Below are positions 1 through 25,670 of a stretch of 32,447 nucleotides of DNA, piece after piece; the stretch's first letter is position 1, and every line of letters begins with the position of its first letter. The position numbers were made by a program, and so were the translations under genes. Location of the stretch: the IMG/VR virus record IMGVR_UViG_2585427783_000005, one strand, 5' to 3'. Source of the stretch: a virus. Taxonomy: Duplodnaviria > Heunggongvirae > Uroviricota > Caudoviricetes. Under the pieces are notes generated by a model that was not told the DNA's origin, ran no database searches, and was given only the letters and a program-made list of their open reading frames with translations.

Positions 1-452
1 AACACCAGCAAACAGATAAAAAAGGGCCAGCCAATTGGCCAGCCCTTCTTAACAGGATGTCGCTTAAGCGAAATCTTAGTTAAGACGCTCCCAATAAAAC
101 CACATAAAAAACATATAATTATAATAAAAACAATTAGTTAATTTAATTTTTAATGCAGTGAATTGCAATATTCTGCAACCTCCGCCGCCACTTTGCCGCC
201 ACTTAAAGCTTTATACCACACAGACTTTAGTATACCCGAGTGAAACGCTAACACATGAGGTAGTTGGAAAATTTCCGTATATGTTGTAATATTGATACGC
301 ATTATATGATTTTTACCTGATATAATGTAATTATTAGCTTCAAAATTATTTTTGCACGAATCAGGTATTACCAAGTAGTTGTCAGTTTTTAAAAACCCAA
401 CATCCTAAAATTAGCATTGTTTTTTAACCACAAAACATCCACGGAGAAGAAC

Positions 453-1262
453 GTGTCAAAAAAGGATACAATCCAGATTATCGATATCAGGATGCAGAGA
501 CCAATCATAGCAAGAATAGAAGAAGAAAATTTAAATTTGACATTGCAAATGTCAGATAAAGCCACATTATCTGGTGCGACAGTTAGTTTTTTCACCCCAA
601 ATAACGTTTCTATATTCTTATCCTCAGCAAAAAAAGAGCTCTCAAAATCCAATTCTATATATAAAAGTCTTTTTGGAAAAATACACAAAACCAAACATAA
701 AAACTTTAAAATTTCCGACAAAGCCCTGCCGAGACTCTATAATTACTTTGAATCAATTCAGACGGCCATTATTTCTATGTATACTGCAATTGAGTCTTTT
801 GCAAATATATGCATACCACATGATTATGTTTATGAAAAAAACAATGCCAAGGGAATCAAAGAATCCTATAGCAAAGAGCTAATTGAGCGATATATACCAA
901 CAAGTGAAAAAATAGATAAAATCCTACCGTCTATTTTAAATTGTGATTCACCTAAAGGTTCAAAACTATGGCAAGATTTTAAAAGCCTTGAGTCACTTAG
1001 AAATGACATAATTCACCCCAAGACAACAAAGAAAAACACAGAAACAAAAGAAGACTCATCTTTTTTATGCATTTTACTATCAGATGACTTTATAAAAAAA
1101 GTTTCCTGTGGATTTGATTTGGTATCTTATTTTTGCAAACAAGACACTACTCATAGTCTTTTCCCAATGGGTTTCGGTGAAATTGAACTTAAACCTGTCC
1201 CAATTAAAGCCGGTGACTTTGAAAAAGTTGATGATCATGATGAAATAGAATTACCATCATAA
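453..1262 (+). CDS. AT-rich hypothetical protein with Rx4H (HEPN-like) motif; possible Abi-type cargo gene
   Basis: Long ORF (track 417..1262, TTG at 417); GTG at 453 has GGAG 9 nt upstream. Lys/Asn-rich, much lower GC than the prophage backbone. Motif LESLRNDIIHP. Start codon uncertain (ATG 492 also possible). Confidence 0.5.
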   Translation: MSKKDTIQIIDIRMQRPIIARIEEENLNLTLQMSDKATLSGATVSFFTPNNVSIFLSSAKKELSKSNSIYKSLFGKIHKTKHKNFKISDKALPRLYNYFESIQTAIISMYTAIESFANICIPHDYVYEKNNAKGIKESYSKELIERYIPTSEKIDKILPSILNCDSPKGSKLWQDFKSLESLRNDIIHPKTTKKNTETKEDSSFLCILLSDDFIKKVSCGFDLVSYFCKQDTTHSLFPMGFGEIELKPVPIKAGDFEKVDDHDEIELPS

Positions 1263-2788: not shown

Positions 2789-3649
2789 TTACACGTGTTT
2801 TTCCAATGTGAAAACTACAGCCCCGGCAGGAGTAATGTCTGTAATGTTGCATTCAAACTCAGCAGACTTATTTGACAACCTGACTTTTCCACCGGGCAAG
2901 CGAATTACATCAAAAACATCAAGAGCGCCGTCGATATCAATTAACCAGCGACCATTACTTATATTCGAAGCAGAACAGTCGACAAGCCAAGAGGCAGCTA
3001 CACCGTCAACAAAAATCAATTCCCCTGAGTTAGAAGGAATCATTGAGGGGTCAGGATGCCACGTTCCTGCATCCTTAAGCTCACCAGATTCAAGACGAGA
3101 TTTTTTAATAGAAAAACCAGATGTGACATCTTCCCTGTTAGCTCGCATTTGCCCCTTGCCTGTTGCTAACCATTCCAGTGACGTATCGGTATCAAGAGCG
3201 CATGTAACAACAACATCACCAGGGAAAAAATCTCGCCTTACCCATGTGCTAATTGTGCCAGAGGAAATGCCGAGCAAATCACCGAGCTCCTTTTGCATGG
3301 TAAAGCCATACGCATCAAGAATCCTACGCAAAACGGTTTTACCACCATTCGTCATAATCTCGTCATAAAGCTCTTTGCCTTTTAACTTGCAACTGGCTCG
3401 CTCGTGATTTGCATTTGCAAGTTCTCCATTTACAAGCCAATTGATATCAGCTCCCGTGTCAAGACAACACCTAACTATGACATTGCCAGGTATTGCATCA
3501 CGCTGAACCCAGCCGCTAACGCTGTGTTTAGCGATACCTAGCAGGTCAGCCAAATCCTTTTGCATCTTGACCCCATAGGCTGACATTAAGCGTTCCAATA
3601 CGCCGTTCGTTGCACTAACACGCCACTGAACATCAAGCTCAGAACTCAT
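2789..3649 (-). CDS. cI: CI-type immunity repressor (186-like) with tandemly duplicated N-terminal HTH domain
   Basis: 286 aa. Two homologous modules (VLERLMSAYGVKMQKDLADLLGIAKHSVSGWVQRDAIPGNVIVRCCLDTGADINWLVNGE / VLRRILDAYGFTMQKELGDLLGISSGTISTWVRRDFFPGDVVVTCALDTDTSLEWLATGK), then a C-terminal domain resembling the 186 CI oligomerisation domain. Divergent from the early operon. Confidence 0.85.
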   Translation of the reverse strand: MSSELDVQWRVSATNGVLERLMSAYGVKMQKDLADLLGIAKHSVSGWVQRDAIPGNVIVRCCLDTGADINWLVNGELANANHERASCKLKGKELYDEIMTNGGKTVLRRILDAYGFTMQKELGDLLGISSGTISTWVRRDFFPGDVVVTCALDTDTSLEWLATGKGQMRANREDVTSGFSIKKSRLESGELKDAGTWHPDPSMIPSNSGELIFVDGVAASWLVDCSASNISNGRWLIDIDGALDVFDVIRLPGGKVRLSNKSAEFECNITDITPAGAVVFTLEKHV

Positions 3650-8233: not shown

Positions 8234-8467
8234 ATGAGAATCAATATCACGTTGGATAAAGAGCAAAAAATTAGTCAGGCAACATTGGATGCACTTGAGG
8301 CTGAACTGTACCGCAATCTTCAACCTATTTACCCAAAGACTGCTATCCGAATTCGCAAGGGCTCCGCTAATGGCGTTGAACTAAGCGGTTTGAAACTGGA
8401 CGAAGATAAAAAACGAGTAATGGAAATCATGCAGCAGGTATGGGAGGACGATAGCTGGCTGCATTAA
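8234..8467 (+). CDS. DinI/Tum-family protein (candidate SOS-induced antirepressor or RecA modulator)
   Basis: 77 aa; MRINITLDKEQKISQATLDALEAELYRNLQPIYP ... EIMQQVWEDDSWLH resembles DinI in length and conserved N- and C-terminal segments; downstream of the LexA box. Confidence 0.75.
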   Translation: MRINITLDKEQKISQATLDALEAELYRNLQPIYPKTAIRIRKGSANGVELSGLKLDEDKKRVMEIMQQVWEDDSWLH

Positions 8468-9545: not shown

Positions 9546-9764
9546 TGCGCGCCAGCAGTGATGCGTAATAATAAAAATTATCCTCTGAGCGCGTCGTGAT
9601 GGCGCTGTCGTGGTCGCTGCTGGTTCGTTGGTGGTCGAGTGTGTTCGTGCGCGTGAGACGCATCTGATGCGTGATGGTGGTGTGCATGGAAAAGCCACCA
9701 GGAGCAGCGGCTTTACAGGAGTGGCAGGATTCAAACTGCTAATTATGTTTCTACTATGATTAAA

Positions 9765-10769
9765 CTAATTTACATGTATGTAGAGTTCACCGTCGCCAGA
9801 CCAATCGGGACACTCTAAAACAAGCCCAAACTGCTTGAATATTTCATCAATGATTATTGTTATCTCCCGAAAATCACCAAAACCTGTAATGTGCTGGTCA
9901 TTAAACTTCCCATAAAGATTCTGAAAAGCAATGCCTAATTCTGATAATTGATATCTTATCTTTGAGTTGGATAGTGTAAGGGATAGCTTTGGATCGTATT
10001 CTTTAATATTGATGTTTAGAGAATGGACATAACCCATCGCATAAGCATAAGAGTTGATGATTAGCCTGATACGTTTTTTTACTTCAAGATACATGTCATT
10101 CAGAGAAATATTACCGTACTTATAACCCCAGATGAGTTTTTCAATCTCGTCAGATACTTCATTTACAACAGTGTCAAGATTCTCTAAAAATAAATCGACA
10201 GTTTCTTGAGGGGCAGACCCCGAAGACATGTAATTAGCGAGATATTCAGACCATGCACGCGTGGCTGAGATAAGAAGCGCGCTACCATACTCGTTGACTG
10301 TAAAGTTTTGGGCTAAGCATGTTAGTAAGTTTTTTTCATGTACGTGCACTAATTCATGGTGAATGCGATGGATGACTGCGAGGTATCCTTCTTCTTTCAG
10401 TTTTAAGAAGCTACCATCATTGAAAAGCTCAACAAAAAAATCAATCGATAGCACAAGGGTATATTCTTCATATAGCCCATCATTGCCAATTTTTGTTACT
10501 AACTGCCCGACGGCTGCGCCCTGTTTGCTATTGGTAAATGAACTAGGGGATTTGTGTTGGTAAGAGGATGTTACCTTTTGAAGAGCTTCACTGAAGTTAT
10601 AGGAAACAATCACGCATTTTAATTTGGAGATATCAAGATTGAGATTCTTTGTTAAAGCTCGGATAGCTTCTAGTGTGAAATTACCGATATTATTTGCTTC
10701 TTGCTCAGTAGCGAAACCTTCGAGGGTTATTTTAAAATCAGTTTCCAAAATATTAATCTCCGCGCCCAT
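9765..10769 (-). CDS. AT-rich hypothetical protein with HExxH motif (possible metal-dependent hydrolase); accessory gene between cos and Q
   Basis: 334 aa ORF, ATG at 10767-10769 (revcomp); IHRIHHELVHVHE motif; strongly AT-rich relative to flanking phage genes; no recognisable P2 homolog. Confidence 0.6.
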   Translation of the reverse strand: MGAEINILETDFKITLEGFATEQEANNIGNFTLEAIRALTKNLNLDISKLKCVIVSYNFSEALQKVTSSYQHKSPSSFTNSKQGAAVGQLVTKIGNDGLYEEYTLVLSIDFFVELFNDGSFLKLKEEGYLAVIHRIHHELVHVHEKNLLTCLAQNFTVNEYGSALLISATRAWSEYLANYMSSGSAPQETVDLFLENLDTVVNEVSDEIEKLIWGYKYGNISLNDMYLEVKKRIRLIINSYAYAMGYVHSLNINIKEYDPKLSLTLSNSKIRYQLSELGIAFQNLYGKFNDQHITGFGDFREITIIIDEIFKQFGLVLECPDWSGDGELYIHVN

Positions 10770-10846
10770 TGTTTTGATATTCGATGCACTATAGCTTTCG
10801 CAGATTGCATCTTCAATAATGAGCGCAGAGATTGTGGCGGCCTAAG

Positions 10847-11893
10847 TTATTCTGGGTTGTCGAGGGTGTACTCTTTGAATCTGATGACCTCCATGCCGAG
10901 CCAGTCATTTACCTCCCTGAACCTGTCCTGTAGCGGCGACAGCTCGTTGCGCACAAATACCTTTGCCACCTTCTCAACATCACCGAGTGAACCGATATTC
11001 TCGGGCTTGCCGCCCATGAGCTGGAACGGTACGCGGTGCGCGTCCATCAGATCGGCGGCACTGGCCTTCTTGATGTTGAAAAAGTCATCCTTTGTGGCGA
11101 CCTCGCTCAGTGGCACGATTTTGATGCCGTCCGGTTTTCCGCCGGGAGCGTAGAAAAACAGGTTCTTAAAGTTGCCGAGCCCTTTTGAGTTGCGCATCGC
11201 CTCGCGCAGCGATTCGACGTCGGTCGCGCTCTGCGCCGGGTCAGTCACATACATGATGTAGCCTGCGTGCGCGCCGTTCTGATAATACTTGCGGCGGAAC
11301 AGCGTCGCGGATTCATTCAGCCAAGCGGAATTAAGCGCGCTGAGATATTCCGGCAGACCGTAAATCTCCTGATTAATGTCGGGCTCCAGCAGGTGAAACA
11401 CGGTATCAGGCGCGAACTCGTGCGGCTGGGTGAAGTTTTCCACAAACCAGAAAATCGAATCGTCGACTCCGCGTCGGGTGTATTTGGCTGGCGAGGCCAG
11501 CAGTTTGATTAACTGGCCGGTGACGCTGTGGCGCTGCTCAAGAAAGGCGTTACCGAACACCAGATAATCGAGCGCAAAGCGGCTGAAATCCTGACGGGAT
11601 AACAACGGGTGCGGAATGTAGGTGCTCGCGAGCACGTTACGCTTAACATAAATTGGCGAGCTGTGATGCACGGCAGAGCGCAGGCTCTTTGCCAGCCCTG
11701 AGAAGCTGACCGGCGGCTCGTACCATTTGCCGTTACTGATGCACTCGACGTAATCCAGAATGTCGCGCTTATCGAGTACCGGCACCGGCTCGCCGAAGGT
11801 GAACGCTGTCGTTTTTGGCGGTGCGCTGGCGGTCAGTTGTTGTGGTTTGCTGGCCTTTTGTGCGTTGGCTTTACGGGATTTTTGTTTACCCAT
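10847..11893 (-). CDS. Q: Portal protein
   Basis: 348 aa; size, position and orientation (adjacent to and downstream of terminase P) match P2 gpQ. Confidence 0.9.
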   Translation of the reverse strand: MGKQKSRKANAQKASKPQQLTASAPPKTTAFTFGEPVPVLDKRDILDYVECISNGKWYEPPVSFSGLAKSLRSAVHHSSPIYVKRNVLASTYIPHPLLSRQDFSRFALDYLVFGNAFLEQRHSVTGQLIKLLASPAKYTRRGVDDSIFWFVENFTQPHEFAPDTVFHLLEPDINQEIYGLPEYLSALNSAWLNESATLFRRKYYQNGAHAGYIMYVTDPAQSATDVESLREAMRNSKGLGNFKNLFFYAPGGKPDGIKIVPLSEVATKDDFFNIKKASAADLMDAHRVPFQLMGGKPENIGSLGDVEKVAKVFVRNELSPLQDRFREVNDWLGMEVIRFKEYTLDNPE

Positions 11894-18726: not shown

Positions 18727-19156
18727 CGCTGTACCCCAGCTCAGAAACAACCCCGATATGCTGCGTCTTTTCGCCGACAACGGGCATATCGATTCCCGAC
18801 TGGCGAGCTCGCTGTCGTTTGAAAAGGTGTACGTGCTTAACATGGTGGTGACCGACTTTACCGGCGACCTCGATTTGATATTCGTGCCAGTGCAGGCGTG
18901 GCTGCGTGAACATCAGCCGGACATTATGACCACCGACGACGGGCGGGAAAAAGGATTCACCTGGATTATTGATATCAATAACGACGATTCGCTCGATATC
19001 AGTATCAGCCTGAGGCTCACCGAGCGCACGCTCGTCAAAGAGGTCGACGGCGCGCTGCATGTCAGCTATGCCCCAGAGCCGCCGCTGCCTGAGCCGGTGA
19101 CGCGCCCGGTCGAGCTGTACGTTAATGGCGAACTGGTGAGTAAGTGGGATGAGTGA
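18689..19156 (+). CDS. R: Tail completion protein R
   Basis: 155 aa from ATG 18689 (AGGA 8 nt upstream); MQKHKSLRKALINAV... resembles the P2 gpR N-terminus. Confidence 0.85.
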   Translation: MQKHKSLRKALINAVPQLRNNPDMLRLFADNGHIDSRLASSLSFEKVYVLNMVVTDFTGDLDLIFVPVQAWLREHQPDIMTTDDGREKGFTWIIDINNDDSLDISISLRLTERTLVKEVDGALHVSYAPEPPLPEPVTRPVELYVNGELVSKWDE

Positions 19157-19601
19157 GTTAACCGCGCTACAGGAACGTCTTGCCGGTCTGATTGCCAGCC
19201 TGTCACCGGCGGCGCGTCGGCAAATGGCGGCTGACATTGCAAAAAAACTGCGCGCCAGTCAGCAACAGCGCATTAAGCGCCAGCAGGCACCTGACGGCAC
19301 CCCGTATGCCGCCAGAAAGCGCCAGCCGGTGCGGAGCAAGAGAGGCCGTATCAGGCGCGAAATGTTCGCCAAACTGCGCACTAACCGCTTTATGAAAGCC
19401 AAAGGCAGCGACAGTGCGGCAGTGGTGGAGTTTACCGACAAGGTACAGCGCATGGCGCGGGTGCATCAGTACGGCCTCAAAGACCGGCCAAACCGCAACA
19501 GCCGGGATGTGCAGTACGAGGCACGCCCGTTGTTCGGTTTCACCCGGGACGATGAACTGCTTGTTGAGAAGCTAATAATCGGAGCTATTAGAAATGGTTA
19601 A
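19149..19601 (+). CDS. S: Tail completion protein S
   Basis: 150 aa, same length and position as P2 gpS. Confidence 0.85.
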   Translation: MSELTALQERLAGLIASLSPAARRQMAADIAKKLRASQQQRIKRQQAPDGTPYAARKRQPVRSKRGRIRREMFAKLRTNRFMKAKGSDSAAVVEFTDKVQRMARVHQYGLKDRPNRNSRDVQYEARPLFGFTRDDELLVEKLIIGAIRNG

Positions 19602-19652
19602 TTAACAAAAGCATGCTAACTCTTGACAATTTGACAACTAGAGTGCACCCTA

Positions 19653-19678
19653 ACGCCAGTCAATAGAGTGCGACTGGC
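19653..19678. other. 8-bp stem hairpin between convergent S and the pentapeptide gene
   Basis: CGCCAGTC-aatagagtgc-GACTGGCG; no clean T-run on either strand. Confidence 0.5.
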
Positions 19679-19718
19679 GTCAAGGAAGATTTTAATCTTT
19701 CTTTAGTGGTTCGATTCC

Positions 19719-20594
19719 CTAGCCTCGTAAATATCGTTTAGTAAATTTCGTGTTTGGTCTGGATGATAGGATTTGTCTTTCTATTTCACTATCACAGTCT
19801 ATATAGTCTAGTGTATTAGCTTCTATAAGTTTGTTCACGTCAATATTTTTTGCATCGATTATGTTGGCATTTCTAAGGTTTGCATTGGTGTATTCCACTT
19901 TATCCAAATCACACTCTCTGAGTACGCAACTTTTCATTTCCGCATTGGAAAAATCCCCACCATATAAATAGCAGCCTTCAAAAATAACACCGTTTAACTT
20001 TGAATCCTGAGCTTTAATATTTTTTATTTTACACTTTATAAATTTTACGTTTTTCATTTTGCTCTTGCTAATATTTAATGCCTGGATTGTACATCCAGTG
20101 AAAGAACAGTCTCTTATGTTAGATTTTTCCATATTTAACCCAGATAGTTCTGAGGTTTTAAAGTGTAAGTATTTAATGGTAAAAAGGTCACCCAACTCCA
20201 TTCTGGGTATGTCTATATTGAAGACACCTTTATTGTTGAGCTGTCTTATTATTTTTATTTTTTGTATTTTCAAATCAACATTAACGTGCTTAGCTAAGTT
20301 TCCCAAATCCTCAAGAAGTTCATTAATCGTTTCTTTGTTTTGTCTTCTGTATTCAAAGTAATAAAGGATGACACCTAATACAAAAAAATCCAAAATGGAT
20401 GAATTTGCATTTATTAGGAACCCAGACAGGAATGAATCATTGTAATTACCATAGTGTATAGAGGCAAGTGTTACGCCAAATGCATATAAAATAAAAATAA
20501 TAAACACGTGCTTCATTTTGCATAAGGATTGTATTATTGGTTTTATGGCATCAATTTTGTTCATTGCTGCAGCAGCGAAAGATTTAAAAGTCAT
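19719..20594 (-). CDS. Membrane-anchored pentapeptide-repeat protein (moron between S and V, antisense to late genes)
   Basis: 291 aa; two N-terminal hydrophobic helices (VFIIFILYAFGVTLASI, ILDFFVLGVILYYF); C-terminal five-residue periodicity (SNIRD CSFTG CTIQA LNISK ... ANLRN ANIID); strongly AT-rich. Start codon uncertain (no clear RBS). Confidence 0.7.
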   Translation of the reverse strand: MTFKSFAAAAMNKIDAIKPIIQSLCKMKHVFIIFILYAFGVTLASIHYGNYNDSFLSGFLINANSSILDFFVLGVILYYFEYRRQNKETINELLEDLGNLAKHVNVDLKIQKIKIIRQLNNKGVFNIDIPRMELGDLFTIKYLHFKTSELSGLNMEKSNIRDCSFTGCTIQALNISKSKMKNVKFIKCKIKNIKAQDSKLNGVIFEGCYLYGGDFSNAEMKSCVLRECDLDKVEYTNANLRNANIIDAKNIDVNKLIEANTLDYIDCDSEIERQILSSRPNTKFTKRYLRG

Positions 20595-20747
20595 TCTATT
20601 TTTAATGCATTCAGATTAAATGGGATTGATGATTTTTACGTGCCCAATGATGCGTGTCAATCAGATCTTTGAAAGTGTCTTGCTGTGTGAGCCCCTTTCC
20701 AATCCCGAAGTTTTGTCTGCAATGAAAAGAAGCGGCATGCTTACATA

Positions 20748-21383
20748 ATGAATACATCAAATATCATTCAAGAGCTTGCCCGTGCAATACGCAACCTCAT
20801 TCGCACAGGGGTGGTGACTGAGGTCGATACCGTGCAGGGGCTGTGCCGTGTACAAAGCGGCGGGATCCAGACTACATGGCTGAACTGGCTGACCACCCGA
20901 GCCGGTCGTTCGCGGACGTGGTGGGCTCCCTCGGTCGGTGAGCAGGTTCTGCTGCTGGCAATCGGTGGCGAGCTTGATACCGCTTTCGTGCTGCCGGGTA
21001 TTTTCTCCGACGATAACCCCGCCCCGTCTGCCTCGGCGGATGCGTGGCATGTGGCTTTCCCTGATGGTGCGGTCATTGAGTACGAGCCCGAGGCCGGCGC
21101 GCTGACGGCCAGCGGTATCAAAACTGCCGACGTGACGGCATCGGAGTCCATCACTGCAACCGTACCGCTGGTACTGGTGAAAGCCTCGACCAGTATCACC
21201 CTCGACACCCCGGAGGTGATTTGCACCAATAAGCTGACGACAGCGACGCTTGAGGTACAAAAAGGCGGCAAGATGAGCGGCAATATCGAACATACCGGCG
21301 GGTCACTGTCGTCTAATGGCAAGGTACTCCACACCCATAAACACCCAGGCGACAGCGGCGGGCAAACGGGGGCACCGTTATGA
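20748..21383 (+). CDS. V: Baseplate spike/assembly protein V
   Basis: 211 aa, same length as P2 gpV; first gene of the V-W-J-I-H-G operon. Confidence 0.9.
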   Translation: MNTSNIIQELARAIRNLIRTGVVTEVDTVQGLCRVQSGGIQTTWLNWLTTRAGRSRTWWAPSVGEQVLLLAIGGELDTAFVLPGIFSDDNPAPSASADAWHVAFPDGAVIEYEPEAGALTASGIKTADVTASESITATVPLVLVKASTSITLDTPEVICTNKLTTATLEVQKGGKMSGNIEHTGGSLSSNGKVLHTHKHPGDSGGQTGAPL

Positions 21384-23243: not shown

Positions 23244-24157
23244 CCGCAAAATATTTTGCCATTCTGACCAATCAGGGCGCGGCGCGGCTGGCGAACGCGG
23301 CGGCACTCGGTACCAAACTCAACCTGACGCAGATGGCCGTCGGTGATGCGAATGGTACGTTGCCGACCCCTGACCCGGCGCAGACGAAGCTCATTAACCA
23401 GAAACGCATCGCGCCGCTGAACCTGCTGACCGTTGACCCGGCCAATACCAGTCAGATTATCGCGGAACAGATTATTCCCGAGAATGAAGGTGGTTTCTGG
23501 ATCCGCGAGATTGGTCTCTATGACGATGATGGTATTCTGATTGCCGTGGCGAACTGTCCGGAGACCTACAAGCCACAACTGCAGGAGGGAAGCGGTCGCA
23601 CGCAGACCATTCGCATGATTCTGATTGTGTCGAGCACATCGGCAATCACCCTGAAAATCGACCCGGCAGTCGTGCTGGCAACGCGCCAGTATGTCGACGA
23701 CAAGATTATCGAGGTGAAAGGATATGCTGATGACCTGATGAAAAAACATGTTGAGGCCGCCAATCCACACAAGCAGTACCCGTTAATCGCTAATGCTCTG
23801 AAAGAAATGGTTGACGCGGGACTGGCCGGCGACGTTCTTAAAAACCTTGGTTTAAGAGCAAGCGGGCAGTACACCGATAATTTGTTATTTACAGGTCCTG
23901 ATGGTCTTAAGATTCAGGTGTTTCGCCGGACGCTCGCAAATTTGACTACTGTCGGTGTAGTAAATTCTGTGCCAGTGACTTTCCCTGTCCCGTTCCCTGT
24001 TAATTGCTGGGGCGTTTTTTCTACCAAATTAACATGGGTTCAGATAACTAACTCATGCGAGTGGGTAAGCAATACAGGATTTACCGCTCAGGTCATGATG
24101 AATATTGCTGTAAATACAAACACCTCAGACGCTATGTTTTTAGCTATAGGATATTAA
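23240..24157 (+). CDS. H: Tail fibre protein (short form; conserved N-terminus plus invertible C-terminal domain)
   Basis: 305 aa; N-terminus (AVGDANGTLP..., IPENEGGFWIREIGLYDDDGILIAVANCPETYKP) resembles the P2 gpH N-terminus; C-terminal part lies inside the predicted invertible segment. Confidence 0.85.
   Translation: MTAKYFAILTNQGAARLANAAALGTKLNLTQMAVGDANGTLPTPDPAQTKLINQKRIAPLNLLTVDPANTSQIIAEQIIPENEGGFWIREIGLYDDDGILIAVANCPETYKPQLQEGSGRTQTIRMILIVSSTSAITLKIDPAVVLATRQYVDDKIIEVKGYADDLMKKHVEAANPHKQYPLIANALKEMVDAGLAGDVLKNLGLRASGQYTDNLLFTGPDGLKIQVFRRTLANLTTVGVVNSVPVTFPVPFPVNCWGVFSTKLTWVQITNSCEWVSNTGFTAQVMMNIAVNTNTSDAMFLAIGY
23835..23858. repeat. Left recombination (crossover) site of invertible tail-fibre segment (hix/gix-like)
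   Basis: TTCTTAAAAACCTTGGTTTAAGAG resembles hixL as recalled; inverted relative to the right site. Confidence 0.6.
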
Positions 24158-24158
24158 T

Positions 24159-24599
24159 ATGAATCGTTTTGTGTTCAGTCCATCTGAGTCCCGTTTTTAT
24201 GCCATCGAGTGGCAGGCTGATTATGTTGATAATAATTGTTGGCCACATGATGCCATTAACGTTAGTGACAGCATTTATTATGAGTTTTCCGGCACTCCCC
24301 CTACAGGTAAGCAACTTATAACTTTAAATAACATGCCAGCATGGGGTGATATTCCTCCACCTACACGAGAAGAATTAATTGTCGCTGCTGATGTGGAGAA
24401 GCAAAAAAGAATAGATTTAGCCAATGATTACATGAACGGTAAGCAATGGCCTGGTAAAGCAGCTATTGGTCGTCTGAAAGGTGAGGAACTGGCACAATAT
24501 AATTTGTGGCTGGATTATCTGGACGCACTGGAGCTGGTCGATACCGCCAGTGCGCCAGATATTGAATGGCCTACGCCTCCGGCAGTTCAGGCCAGATGA
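24159..24599 (+). CDS. G: Tail fibre assembly chaperone (expressed orientation)
   Basis: 146 aa; C-terminus ...SAPDIEWPTPP typical of the tail-fibre-assembly family. Confidence 0.85.
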   Translation: MNRFVFSPSESRFYAIEWQADYVDNNCWPHDAINVSDSIYYEFSGTPPTGKQLITLNNMPAWGDIPPPTREELIVAADVEKQKRIDLANDYMNGKQWPGKAAIGRLKGEELAQYNLWLDYLDALELVDTASAPDIEWPTPPAVQAR

Positions 24600-25173
24600 C
24601 ATCCGGCGCGGTGCTGGTATCTGTTGCCGTCACCGCGTCAATGTAATCCAGCACAGTGTTAAGGCTGGTTGTTTCTGCCTGCGTCAGTTTACGTCCGGCC
24701 TGCAATTTCAGCTGAATCAGACTGATTGAAGCCATTGCAGTATCAATCAGTGACTGGCGCTGTGCTTCTGCTGCATCTACTGCGGCGCTATGCTGTGCTT
24801 CGGTATCCGTCACCCATTTCTCACCATCCCATTTATCGTATGGCGTTAACGGGGCGATAGTGGTTGTATTATCAGGGTAATCACCCGGAGCTGTGATTTC
24901 TTTTGATTCTCCTGTTTCGGTGCTAAAGACGATTTCACCGCGATGGTCTGGCACATATTCCCATGAGTTAAAATCTACAGATCGGCAGATTGCATAACCA
25001 GCTTTGTATGTGCCAGGGGCATCTAAACAGGAATATGCAGGGATACCGACACCAACGGCAAGATATTCAGTTGATGTGGAAATATATTCCCGTGTTTCGC
25101 CATCATAGTTATAGACGGTAATATCCCCCGCCTTTGTAGCAATAAACTCGCTATTTAATACAGCGTTATCCAT
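24571..25173 (-). CDS. Alternative tail fibre assembly chaperone (inverted orientation)
   Basis: 200 aa on minus strand; C-terminus ...TAPDVIWPELPEA, paralogous to G; 3' ends of the two chaperone genes overlap convergently. Confidence 0.8.
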   Translation of the reverse strand: MDNAVLNSEFIATKAGDITVYNYDGETREYISTSTEYLAVGVGIPAYSCLDAPGTYKAGYAICRSVDFNSWEYVPDHRGEIVFSTETGESKEITAPGDYPDNTTTIAPLTPYDKWDGEKWVTDTEAQHSAAVDAAEAQRQSLIDTAMASISLIQLKLQAGRKLTQAETTSLNTVLDYIDAVTATDTSTAPDVIWPELPEA

Positions 25174-25670
25174 TATGCAGCCCTCACGATATAGTTAAAT
25201 GCAATATTCCGTGGACGGGTTTCATTTATCCCATATGCTGTTGTTCTCTGATTCCCGACAAAATATCCATTTGGATTAGAAGATACAGAATAATCATCAA
25301 AATCAAGTGGGCTATCAGCACCCGGCGTCAGGCTTGCAATATATCCTCTTCCCATAACTTCTGATGCTGGTATTTCTTTTGTACGATAATCACTAACTCT
25401 GAAGAGCTGCCCTTGGTGGGTGTGTGATTCCACTCCTCCATTCTGAAGACTTAGCAAGGCACGTACAGCATCAATACCACGCCCGTCATCCCAGCCACGA
25501 ATAAACTCACCACGTAAATCAGGCAATTTATTTGTCGGATAAGCCTTTGCCAGTTCCGGATATTCTTCAGCAGAAAAAGCGGCACCGTTGCATTTCAGCC
25601 AGCCTGTTGGCGGAGTGGCTGAAGGCCACGGAACAGGCACCCCAACCGGTAATGCAGAGCCTTCTCCCAA
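25173..25670 (-). CDS. Alternative tail-fibre C-terminal (receptor-binding) segment; promoterless, used only after inversion
   Basis: Minus-strand ORF without ATG start that begins at the right crossover site; LPDLRGEFIRGW and NETRPRNIAFNYIV tail-collar-like motifs. Confidence 0.7.
   Translation of the reverse strand: MGEGSALPVGVPVPWPSATPPTGWLKCNGAAFSAEEYPELAKAYPTNKLPDLRGEFIRGWDDGRGIDAVRALLSLQNGGVESHTHQGQLFRVSDYRTKEIPASEVMGRGYIASLTPGADSPLDFDDYSVSSNPNGYFVGNQRTTAYGINETRPRNIAFNYIVRAA

What the first reader, a model, noticed from the sequence alone, without database searches (positions are those of the whole stretch)
19719..20594. Membrane-anchored pentapeptide-repeat protein inserted antisense between tail genes S and V
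P2-family late genes normally run R-S-V without interruption. Here an 876-bp AT-rich gene sits on the opposite strand between S and V. Its product has two N-terminal transmembrane helices and roughly 20 consecutive pentapeptide repeats, predicting a membrane-tethered beta-helix. Soluble pentapeptide-repeat proteins (Qnr, McbG, MfpA) act as DNA mimics that protect gyrase; a membrane-tethered version in a prophage moron is not a described defence or exclusion factor that I know of. Its placement and composition make it a candidate superinfection-exclusion or anti-phage gene expressed from the lysogen.
Basis: partly seen in the sequence, partly recalled or inferred. Interest (0 to 1): 0.75.

Follow-up and report, generated by a model that had tools for sequence, protein, structure and literature searches.

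The report
Membrane pentapeptide-repeat cargo gene in prophage
A P2/186-like E. coli prophage carries, in a known swap-prone slot between tail genes S and V, a foreign gene for a small inner-membrane protein with a cytoplasmic pentapeptide-repeat beta-helix; it belongs to a widespread uncharacterised family and is a plausible but untested phage-exclusion factor.

Summary
An intact 876-bp ORF (19719-20594, minus strand, 31.6% GC against about 58% flanks) lies antisense between gpS and gpV and encodes two N-terminal TM helices plus about 24 pentapeptide units.

Several premises fail. Phage P2 itself has non-essential antisense orf30 in this gap, a known variable region. Close prophages have the slot empty or hold other cargo. 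A membrane pentapeptide defence effector already exists (HalA of Hailong), but this protein is not HalA: 42 bits against a 250 cutoff, no channel domain, no partner gene, no linker homology. It is also not DNA-mimic-like (cytoplasmic part net +8, pI 9.1; Qnr controls -9 and -10).

New findings. The N-terminal module alone retrieves 167 cluster representatives; 137 of the 150 scanned have pentapeptide repeats, so the architecture is fixed and widespread. It is chromosomal and syntenic in Cytophagales and solitary cargo on prophages and small plasmids. TM2 with polar residues is the most conserved part (87%), while TM1 (43%) and the beta-helix surface vary, so the membrane part is more than a tether. 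Alleles swap as cassettes (R, V, W 98% identical, cargo 53%).

Best guess (0.4): a lysogen-expressed inner-membrane anti-phage factor. Function is untested. Interest is moderate.

The parts
19719..20594 (-). CDS of the membrane pentapeptide-repeat protein (291 aa from M1). Alternative starts are M11 at 20564 (281 aa) and M27 at 20516 (265 aa). M27 is the only start conserved in all alleles.
20454..20513 (-). TM1 (residues 28-47), hydrophobic and poorly conserved (43% mean pairwise identity); inferred to be the lipid-facing outer helix
20352..20432 (-). TM2 (residues 55-81), with the invariant polar motif N62-A-N64-S-S-I-L-D69...G74; the most conserved segment (87%). It is part of a continuous helix spanning residues 53-100. 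The wide-family equivalent is LVEAHGxxxDxLxxG.
20211..20351 (-). Juxtamembrane and linker helices (residues 82-128), conserved (70-71%), basic; helix 106-121 caps the beta-helix
19839..20210 (-). Pentapeptide-repeat right-handed beta-helix (residues 129-252; about 24 units, 6 coils), net +4, pI 8.7. Inward-facing positions are conserved and outward-facing ones variable. Predicted to be cytoplasmic.
19722..19838 (-). C-terminal helical tail (residues 253-291), variable (43%); some alleles read through the stop into the 3' element
20632..20660 (-). Sigma-70-like promoter candidate TTGACA-17-AAAAAT (10 of 12) on the gene's own strand, about 38 nt upstream of M1. This is a consensus match only.
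19648..19725 (.). Conserved element attached to the gene's 3' end. It has an invariant GGGAAT(C/T)GAAC (read on the + strand as the tRNA T-arm-like GGTTCGATTCC at 19708-19718), a covarying hairpin (19684-19701) and a second hairpin (19648-19685). It sits where P2 has the O-operon terminator. No tRNA is called.
19556..20730 (.). Variable cassette (1,175 bp, 33.4% GC) that replaces 94 bp of an empty S-V site, including the last 15 or so codons of gpS and most of the S-V intergenic region
19149..19601 (+). gpS tail completion gene (left flank); its 3' end lies inside the variable segment
20748..21383 (+). gpV baseplate spike gene (right flank)

Best explanation
The feature is an intact accessory gene cassette (moron) in the known orf30 (S-V) variable slot of a P2/186-like E. 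coli prophage. Shown: it encodes a small protein with an N-terminal two-helix membrane hairpin and a long TM2 helix that continues into conserved linker helices. A six-coil, basic pentapeptide-repeat beta-helix follows. Shown: this architecture defines a widespread, unnamed family whose hallmark is a polar or charged TM2 motif. Shown: in Enterobacterales the gene occurs as solitary, AT-rich, antisense cargo of P2-like prophages, and its alleles are exchanged as cassettes. Inferred from the positive-inside rule: both termini, and hence the beta-helix, are cytoplasmic. Inferred, about 0.4: it is expressed from its own promoter in the lysogen and acts at the inner membrane as a single-gene anti-phage factor. 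Inferred mechanism: the conserved TM2 helices assemble into an oligomeric core, with the variable TM1 facing lipid, and this core is the active membrane element (ion leak or depolarisation, or blocking of an entry route). The rapidly diversifying basic beta-helix surface would be the cytoplasmic recognition or gating domain that binds a phage nucleic acid or protein. In logic this resembles HalA (a repeat domain gating a membrane effector), but with an unrelated membrane module and no partner enzyme.
For: Gene, composition and flanks. Known variable slot: P2 orf30 lies antisense between the O-operon terminator and the pV activator site, and PMC3091744 names the orf30 region as one of three regions of horizontal acquisition. 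Slot states in E. coli relatives are empty, two pentapeptide alleles, HIT plus hypothetical, other hypotheticals, and one with a partial PD-T4-7 match. Cassette exchange: R, V and W are 98% identical while the cargo is 53%; nucleotide identity is 96% for V against 63% for the cargo. All alleles are 30-35% GC. Twelve of 14 loci are in the S-V slot and antisense, and one is beyond ogr. Fixed architecture: a module-only profile finds 167 representatives, and 137 of the 150 scanned carry pentapeptide repeats. TM2 is the most conserved part (87%) with invariant N62, N64, S65, S66, D69 and G74; the wide-family Asp is 91% and the Gly 89% conserved. TM1 is 43% conserved; outward repeat positions are variable and inward ones conserved. 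Confident model: pLDDT 93.9. Mobile-element association: small plasmids carry it next to a restriction endonuclease, an RM system, an HNH nuclease and RelE/ParE, and one contig carries ArdC-N. An own-strand promoter-like site scores 10 of 12. HalA is precedent for a pentapeptide domain on a membrane effector.
Against: There is no functional or expression data. PADLOC has no match, and PHROG 12514 is of unknown function. The wide family sits in a conserved housekeeping neighbourhood in Cytophagales (ksgA-mgtE-2-hydroxyacid dehydrogenase-[gene]-greA-HIT in 43-62 of 80 species). That suggests an ordinary cellular role and is unusual for a toxic abortive effector. No similarity to known channels was found: Pfam finds nothing on the module, hhalign against KcsA gives 0.5% probability, and the model shows a continuous TM2 rather than a pore loop. 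Oligomerisation could not be modelled. The promoter match is only a consensus hit (7 found against 4.7 expected in the region), and no clear Shine-Dalgarno sequence precedes any candidate start. Variable beta-helix surfaces are expected for any solenoid and do not prove an arms race.
Confidence: 0.4

Rival explanations
1. Non-lethal superinfection exclusion. The protein sits in the inner membrane and blocks genome entry of incoming phages without harming the cell. It would do this by occupying or binding the cytoplasmic face of the entry route or the leading DNA end with its basic beta-helix. TM2 conservation would then reflect docking to a conserved host membrane protein.
For: It is a small inner-membrane protein encoded singly by a prophage, as classical exclusion proteins are (established knowledge). 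Other evidence: basic cytoplasmic domain, cassette diversification, own-strand promoter-like site, and a TM2 conserved on all faces, compatible with a protein-protein interface.
Against: No homology to any known exclusion protein. The literature search found no pentapeptide exclusion factor. The recognition domain is predicted to be cytoplasmic, whereas many exclusion proteins act on the periplasmic side. The chromosomal syntenic relatives in Cytophagales are not explained.
Confidence: 0.2
2. Host-physiology cargo (lysogenic conversion). The protein keeps the ancestral cellular role of its family, for example ion or membrane homeostasis through the polar TM2. It would benefit the lysogen independently of phages.
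For: The wide family is a vertically inherited, syntenic chromosomal gene of about 281 aa in Cytophagales, next to mgtE and greA. The intramembrane E/H/D (N/N/D) motif is conserved. No defence-model match was found.
Against: In Enterobacterales it was found only as prophage cargo with rapid allelic replacement, and on plasmids it sits among RM, TA and nuclease genes. E-to-N and H-to-N substitutions in the phage subfamily suggest altered function. The synteny may only reflect order-level gene-order conservation.
Confidence: 0.2
3. Counter-defence factor serving the phage itself. The membrane-bound beta-helix would sequester or inhibit a host or rival-element defence component during P2 infection or induction.
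For: A soluble phage pentapeptide protein (24_60) counteracts the Sucellos defence system in Vibrio. One relative lies on a contig with ArdC-N and MPTase-PolyVal anti-restriction genes.
Against: The gene is antisense to the late operons with its own promoter-like site, which fits lysogenic expression rather than lytic timing. Anti-defence genes are rare in P2 (28 of 1,511 elements). Membrane anchoring with a conserved polar TM2 is not explained.
Confidence: 0.1
4. Qnr/MfpA/McbG-type DNA mimic that protects gyrase or topoisomerase, simply anchored to the membrane.
For: The beta-helix fold matches AlbG, MfpA, QnrB1 and EfsQnr structurally. There are weak NCBIfam Qnr hits (38 bits or less).
Against: Scores are far below family cutoffs (38 against 240-500 bits). 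The domain is basic in all 21 subfamily members (net +1 to +7, median pI 8.8). Real Qnr controls are net -9 and -10, pI 4.65-5.23. The structural match is generic to all pentapeptide proteins.
Confidence: 0.03
5. Orphan or divergent HalA, the effector of the Hailong system.
For: HalA is the top NCBIfam hit (E 6.7e-11). PDB 9nyi matches the repeat region. HalA is described as pentapeptide repeats plus an IRK channel domain.
Confidence: 0.02

Closest known systems
HalA, membrane effector of the Hailong anti-phage system (Tan et al. 2025; PDB 9nyi)
   Same: A membrane protein that combines a pentapeptide-repeat domain with a membrane-embedded effector part. It is carried by P4/P2-type mobile elements. 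Functionally it shows that a repeat domain can bind a ligand (ssDNA) and gate a membrane effector.
   Different: HalA has an IRK-type K+ channel domain and works with the nucleotidyltransferase HalB. Here the membrane module is an unrelated 2-TM hairpin at the N-terminus, no partner gene exists, and sequence and structural similarity are limited to generic repeats.
P2 orf30 and other cargo of the S-V (orf30) variable region of P2-like phages
   Same: Identical genomic slot, antisense orientation, AT-rich, non-essential accessory cargo, between the O-operon terminator and the V promoter.
   Different: There is no sequence similarity to Orf30 (best E 5.1). The protein family is different.
Soluble DNA-mimic pentapeptide-repeat proteins (Qnr, MfpA, AlbG/McbG)
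   Different: They are soluble, dimeric and strongly acidic (Qnr controls net -9 and -10). This protein is membrane-embedded and basic (net +8), and scores far below the family cutoffs.
Classical prophage superinfection-exclusion membrane proteins (for example P22 SieA, T4 Imm, HK97 gp15; from my own knowledge)
   Same: Small inner-membrane proteins encoded as single accessory genes and expressed to exclude other phages.
   Different: No homology was detected, none is known to carry a pentapeptide beta-helix, and function here is untested.
HglK of Anabaena (membrane protein with C-terminal pentapeptide repeats; recalled from memory, not tested here)
   Same: N-terminal transmembrane helices followed by a long pentapeptide-repeat domain, which shows that membrane-anchored repeat proteins as such are not new.
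   Different: It is much larger, has four TM helices, and acts in heterocyst glycolipid localisation. No relationship was tested.

Membership tests
Pentapeptide-repeat protein superfamily (Pfam clan: PF00805, PF13599, PF13576) | Tandem A(D/N)LXX-type pentapeptide units scoring above the Pfam gathering thresholds | tested here: met
   PF13599 68.9 bits (cutoff 38); PF00805 47.9 bits (cutoff 20.2)
Pentapeptide-repeat protein superfamily (Pfam clan: PF00805, PF13599, PF13576) | Right-handed quadrilateral beta-helix fold | tested here: met
HalA (Hailong effector; NCBIfam NF051894) | Whole-protein score above the curated cutoff (250 bits) | tested here: not met
   42 bits
HalA (Hailong effector; NCBIfam NF051894) | IRK-type ion-channel domain | tested here: not met
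   No ion-channel Pfam hit at E<=1. hhalign of the module against KcsA gives 0.5% probability. TM2 is modelled as a continuous helix without a pore loop.
HalA (Hailong effector; NCBIfam NF051894) | Adjacent HalB nucleotidyltransferase partner | tested here: not met
   None found in the window or beside relatives
HalA (Hailong effector; NCBIfam NF051894) | Specific homology outside the generic repeats | tested here: not met
   The linker-only profile does not hit 9nyi at E<=10
Qnr/MfpA-type DNA mimics | Family-level score above the NCBIfam cutoffs | tested here: not met
   38 bits or less against cutoffs of 240-500
Qnr/MfpA-type DNA mimics | Strongly acidic, DNA-like surface charge | tested here: not met
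   Query net +8, pI 9.07, against Qnr controls net -9 and -10
Qnr/MfpA-type DNA mimics | Protection of gyrase or topoisomerase from poisons | not testable with these tools
   Needs MIC and enzyme assays
P2-like phage orf30-region accessory cargo (moron) | Location between gpS and gpV, absent from close relatives, atypical composition | tested here: met
P2-like phage orf30-region accessory cargo (moron) | Expression from its own promoter in the lysogen | tested here: inconclusive
   Promoter-like site with 10 of 12 matches; weaker sites in other alleles; no transcript data
PHROG 12514 | Full-length match to the family profile | tested here: met
   E 1.1e-159, residues 1-291 against profile 1-287 of 287; the family has no known function
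Unnamed 2-TM + linker + pentapeptide family (defined here) | N-terminal module with the polar TM2 motif ([EN]-x-[HN]-[GS]-x3-D-x4-G) and RLN-type linker, followed by pentapeptide repeats | tested here: met
   The module-only profile finds 167 representatives, 137 of the 150 scanned with repeats; motif conservation; plasmid members at E 1e-26 to 1e-30
Known anti-phage defence systems (PADLOC-DB 2.0) | Match to any defence protein model | tested here: not met
   0 families at E<=1

The most novel reading that the evidence does not exclude
The gene is the phage-borne branch of an undescribed family of minimal membrane effectors. In this reading a two-helix hairpin with a conserved intramembrane Asn/Asp (Glu/His/Asp) strip oligomerises into an ion-conducting or membrane-perturbing core, gated by a cytoplasmic pentapeptide beta-helix. 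In Bacteroidota it would be a housekeeping protein. Prophages and small plasmids would have captured it repeatedly as a stand-alone, single-gene anti-phage system, mechanistically parallel to HalA but evolutionarily independent. It moves together with a conserved tRNA-like 3' element.
Probability: 0.2. Interest if true: 0.7.

Novelty: new variant of a known kind. Interest (0 to 1): 0.45.

Why it matters
If the anti-phage role holds, this would be a new single-gene defence or exclusion family that current detectors miss (no PADLOC hit). It occupies a P2 hotspot that the large hotspot surveys I read do not treat as a defence locus. It would also be a second, independent case of a pentapeptide beta-helix coupled to a membrane effector. 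That would suggest such repeat domains are a general ligand-sensing module for membrane effectors rather than only DNA mimics. The family-level result stands regardless of function. It defines an unannotated membrane module with a conserved charged TM2, present in at least 226 species' genomes and always joined to pentapeptide repeats, and it gives a tractable E. coli entry point for studying it. If the gene has no phage phenotype, the finding is an ordinary moron of unknown function.

Tried and rejected
- **HalA membership:** rejected. The score is 42 bits against a 250 cutoff, there is no channel domain and no HalB, the linker-only profile does not hit 9nyi, and structural ranks are low.
- **K+-channel-like pore in the N-terminal module:** no support.
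- **DNA-mimic reading:** rejected on charge, with Qnr controls.
- **Homology to P2 Orf30:** none.
- **A tRNA gene at the cassette edge:** ARAGORN and Rfam are negative in the window and in up to 10 related loci; only a T-arm-like 11-mer and a covarying hairpin remain.
- **Flanking direct or inverted repeats at the cassette boundaries:** only short AT-rich chance matches.
- **Word-indexed search with the wide-family module profile:** only 12 mostly fragmentary hits, not informative.
- **afdb50 fold library:** unavailable.
- **BFVD search:** only generic phage pentapeptide proteins.
- **Tan et al. 2025 Hailong paper:** not held in the library, so the HalA description comes from secondary sources and PDB 9nyi.
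- **dN/dS analysis:** not attempted, because allele divergence (47-66% protein identity) saturates synonymous sites.
- **Literature:** searches found no description of this protein as an exclusion or defence factor.
Full report
**1. Observation.**
The ORF is present at 19719-20594 on the minus strand (291 aa, ATG start). GC drops to 0.29-0.36 across about 19550-20750 against 0.52-0.63 on both sides. The ORF itself is 31.6% GC in a 51.3% GC window. The flanking + strand genes are gpR, gpS, gpV, gpW and gpJ by Pfam and PHROGs. The rest of the window is a complete P2/186-like prophage, with an integrase, a CI-type repressor, a DinI-like gene, and capsid and tail modules.

The product scores above the gathering thresholds for Pentapeptide_4 (68.9 against 38 bits) and Pentapeptide (47.9 against 20.2). 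Hydropathy shows a strong first and a weaker, polar second hydrophobic segment. AlphaFold2 with 21 close homologues gave pLDDT 78. With 150 diverse family members it gave pLDDT 93.9 and pTM 0.84. The model has these elements:
- helix 3-26;
- TM1 at 28-47;
- a five-residue loop;
- one continuous helix at 53-100;
- helix 106-121;
- a beta-helix over about 129-252, which is about 24 pentapeptide units or 6 coils;
- two short C-terminal helices.

The N-terminus is uncertain. M27 is invariant and is the annotated start in several homologues, upstream extensions differ between alleles, and no candidate start has a clear Shine-Dalgarno sequence. Databases hold 291-, 281- and 262-aa versions of this protein.

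**2. The slot is a known variable region.**
Phage P2 (AF063097) carries non-essential orf30 in the same gap and the same antisense orientation. It lies between the putative O-operon terminator and the pV activator site. Orf30 is unrelated in sequence. PMC3091744 states that the orf30 region, the Z/fun region and the TO region commonly hold genes not found in P2 and are predicted sites of horizontal acquisition.

Among 210 E. coli records sharing the flanks, the slot has these states:
- empty (S to V span 1,320 bp);
- this allele (4 of 5,426 complete genomes);
- a 53%-identical allele;
- a HIT-family gene plus a hypothetical gene;
- other hypothetical genes.

One of the alternative cargos has a partial match to PD-T4-7 (E 1.7e-9), a validated abortive-infection system (PMC9519451). 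Against an empty site, the variable segment here is about 19556-20730. That is 1,175 bp at 33.4% GC, replacing 94 bp that include the last 15 or so codons of S. No repeats mark its edges. The large hotspot surveys I could read emphasise the old/tin, Z/fun and tail-CI loci rather than this slot.

**3. Cassette exchange.**
In several prophages R, V and W are 97-99% identical in protein to those of this window, while the pentapeptide protein is only 52-53% identical. At nucleotide level V is 96% identical, S 86% and the cargo 63%. Every allele is 30-35% GC whatever the host. Of 14 loci with a subfamily member, 12 are in the S-V slot, always antisense. One lies beyond D and ogr at the prophage end, and one is unresolved. 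The subfamily comprises 27 clusters at 90% identity. All are from Enterobacterales and 47-96% identical to the query.

**4. Family-level anatomy.**
Within the subfamily the most conserved part is not the repeat domain. Mean pairwise identities are as follows:

| Region | Identity |
|---|---|
| TM2 (55-81) | 87% |
| Juxtamembrane helix (82-104) | 71% |
| Linker (105-128) | 70% |
| Repeat domain (129-252) | 56% |
| TM1 (28-47) | 43% |
| C-terminal tail (253-283) | 43% |

TM2 has invariant F55, F59, N62, A63, N64, S65, S66, I67, D69, F70, L73, G74, V75, L77, Y78, Y79, F80 and E81. In the repeat domain, inward-facing positions are conserved (0.78-0.82) and outward-facing ones are variable (0.59-0.66).

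A profile of the N-terminal 112 residues alone, containing no repeat residues, was searched against 1.84 billion representatives. It found 167 proteins at E<=1e-3, mostly 250-340 aa with the module at the N-terminus. Of the 150 scanned, 137 carry pentapeptide Pfam domains, and no Pfam or NCBIfam model covers the module. The wide-family TM2 signature is LVEAHGxxxDxLxxG, with Asp 91% and Gly 89% conserved. A conserved EEIDDxRxW...RLNxxG linker follows. In the phage subfamily Glu and His are replaced by Asn.

**5. Where the wide family lives.**
A scan of one genome per species found 226 species with a relative. Most are Cytophagales, with some Anaerolineae, Brocadia, Aminicenantes, Desulfobotulus and Alteromonadaceae. 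In the 80 loci analysed the gene (median 281 aa) has conserved neighbours in 43-62 loci. These are PdxA, KsgA/RsmA, MgtE and a 2-hydroxyacid dehydrogenase upstream, GreA and a HIT protein downstream, then GpsA and an acyltransferase. There it looks like a vertically inherited cellular gene with no nucleotidyltransferase partner.

Elsewhere the family is solitary cargo of mobile elements:
- an 11-kb Acinetobacter plasmid, next to RelE/ParE-NadS and a restriction endonuclease;
- a 9-kb Psychrobacter plasmid that also carries a SinI RM system and an HNH nuclease;
- a Bacillus mycoides plasmid;
- a metagenomic contig that also carries ArdC-N and MPTase-PolyVal genes.

The plasmid proteins carry the membrane module at E 1e-26 to 1e-30.

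**6. Comparison with known families.**

The Qnr/MfpA analogy also fails. Scores are far below the cutoffs. The beta-helix is basic in all 21 subfamily members (net +1 to +7, median pI 8.8). The whole cytoplasmic part is net +8 with pI 9.07, whereas two real Qnr proteins computed as controls are net -9 and -10 with pI 5.23 and 4.65. In the wide family the charge ranges from -15 to +14, so charge is a lineage-specific property. PADLOC has no match. PHROG 12514 matches at full length but has no known function. The exact protein is in public databases (123 contigs, for example WP_134881175.1), named only 'pentapeptide repeat-containing protein' and once mislabelled PipB2.

**7. How it most likely works.**
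Shown: the anatomy, the family, the contexts and the cassette behaviour.

Inferred: N-in/C-in topology, from basic residues before TM1 and after TM2 and a short acidic loop. This places the beta-helix in the cytoplasm.

Inferred: TM2 is functional rather than a tether. It is conserved on all faces and carries a polar Asn/Ser/Asp strip, while TM1 drifts. This is the pattern of an inner helix in an oligomeric bundle surrounded by lipid-facing outer helices.

Inferred: lysogenic expression, from the antisense orientation and a promoter-like site with 10 of 12 matches at 20660-20632. This is weak evidence, since 7 sites were found against 4.7 expected in the region.

Putting context and anatomy together, my best single reading (about 0.4) is a lysogen-expressed, single-gene inner-membrane anti-phage factor. 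Its diversifying basic beta-helix would recognise a phage component, and its conserved TM2 core would execute the effect, either membrane perturbation or a block of entry. The main counter-evidence is the housekeeping synteny in Cytophagales and the complete absence of functional data.

The rivals are:
- non-lethal exclusion (0.2);
- host-physiology cargo (0.2);
- counter-defence (0.1; compare the Vibrio phage pentapeptide anti-Sucellos protein);
- DNA mimicry (0.03);
- orphan HalA (0.02).

**8. Verdict.**
The finding is real and moderately interesting. However, it is an uncharacterised member of a widespread, unnamed membrane-protein family, with a clear and cheap experimental path. Novelty: new variant of a known kind. 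Interest: 0.45.

Noticed in passing
window 19648-19725 (also L002-L005, L010, L013, L018-L025 just 3' of the gene): A conserved element of about 75 nt starts at the stop codon. GGGAAT(C/T)GAAC is invariant in all alleles, including the 34%-identical one and the copy in a different prophage slot. On the + strand it reads GGTTCGATTCC, a tRNA T-arm-like motif (unique in the window; 0.04 expected). An adjacent hairpin keeps pairing through double changes at 5 of 6 pairs. ARAGORN and Rfam call no tRNA. It may be a tRNA-3'-half remnant, a cassette recombination anchor, or a 3' stem-loop or terminator. Some alleles read through the stop into it (C-terminal ...GIEPNS or ...ESNPTQ).
   Followed up: partly
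window 9765-10769 (-), AT-rich island 9701-10901: A 334-aa ORF sits in the classic old/tin (gpA-to-Q) defence hotspot of this prophage. It has no Pfam or PADLOC match, so it is a second uncharacterised cargo candidate in the same element.
   Followed up: partly
window 417-1262 (+) and AT-rich region 1-1701: A 281-aa ORF (TTG start) lies beyond the integrase at the prophage end. It has only a marginal PADLOC hit (RTasHEPN, E 1.2e-4, 20 bits). It may be cargo in the integrase-att hotspot or flanking host DNA.
   Followed up: no
window 19556-19601 (3' end of gpS): The left boundary of the variable segment lies inside gpS, so the last 15 or so residues of the tail-completion protein differ between cassette states (S is 86-88% identical where R, V and W are 98%). 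Cargo exchange therefore remodels the S C-terminus.
   Followed up: partly
L008 (E. coli APEC E18055) S-V slot; L026-L105 position +2: A HIT-family protein is an alternative cargo of the same S-V slot in E. coli. A HIT protein is also the conserved +2 neighbour of the wide-family gene in Cytophagales. This is probably coincidence, but the two HIT proteins were not compared.
   Followed up: no
window 8234-8467 (+): A DinI-like gene (PF06183, 7.4e-24) sits downstream of gpA, as in 186-type phages (Tum-like antirepressor position). Together with the CI-type repressor at 2789-3649, this marks the prophage as 186-like rather than P2-like in its immunity region.
   Followed up: no
window 24001-25670: An AT-rich segment holds minus-strand tail-fibre-assembly (PF02413) and tail-collar (PF07484) ORFs opposite to the + strand H and G genes. 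This suggests an alternative or invertible tail-fibre cassette in the Z/fun-side hotspot.
   Followed up: no
L014, L015 (metagenomic 186-like elements): In two contigs, gpS next to the pentapeptide gene is followed directly by a gene with a gpA-family (PF05840) domain instead of R and the lysis genes. This indicates a large deletion or rearrangement that retains the S-cargo-V block.
   Followed up: no
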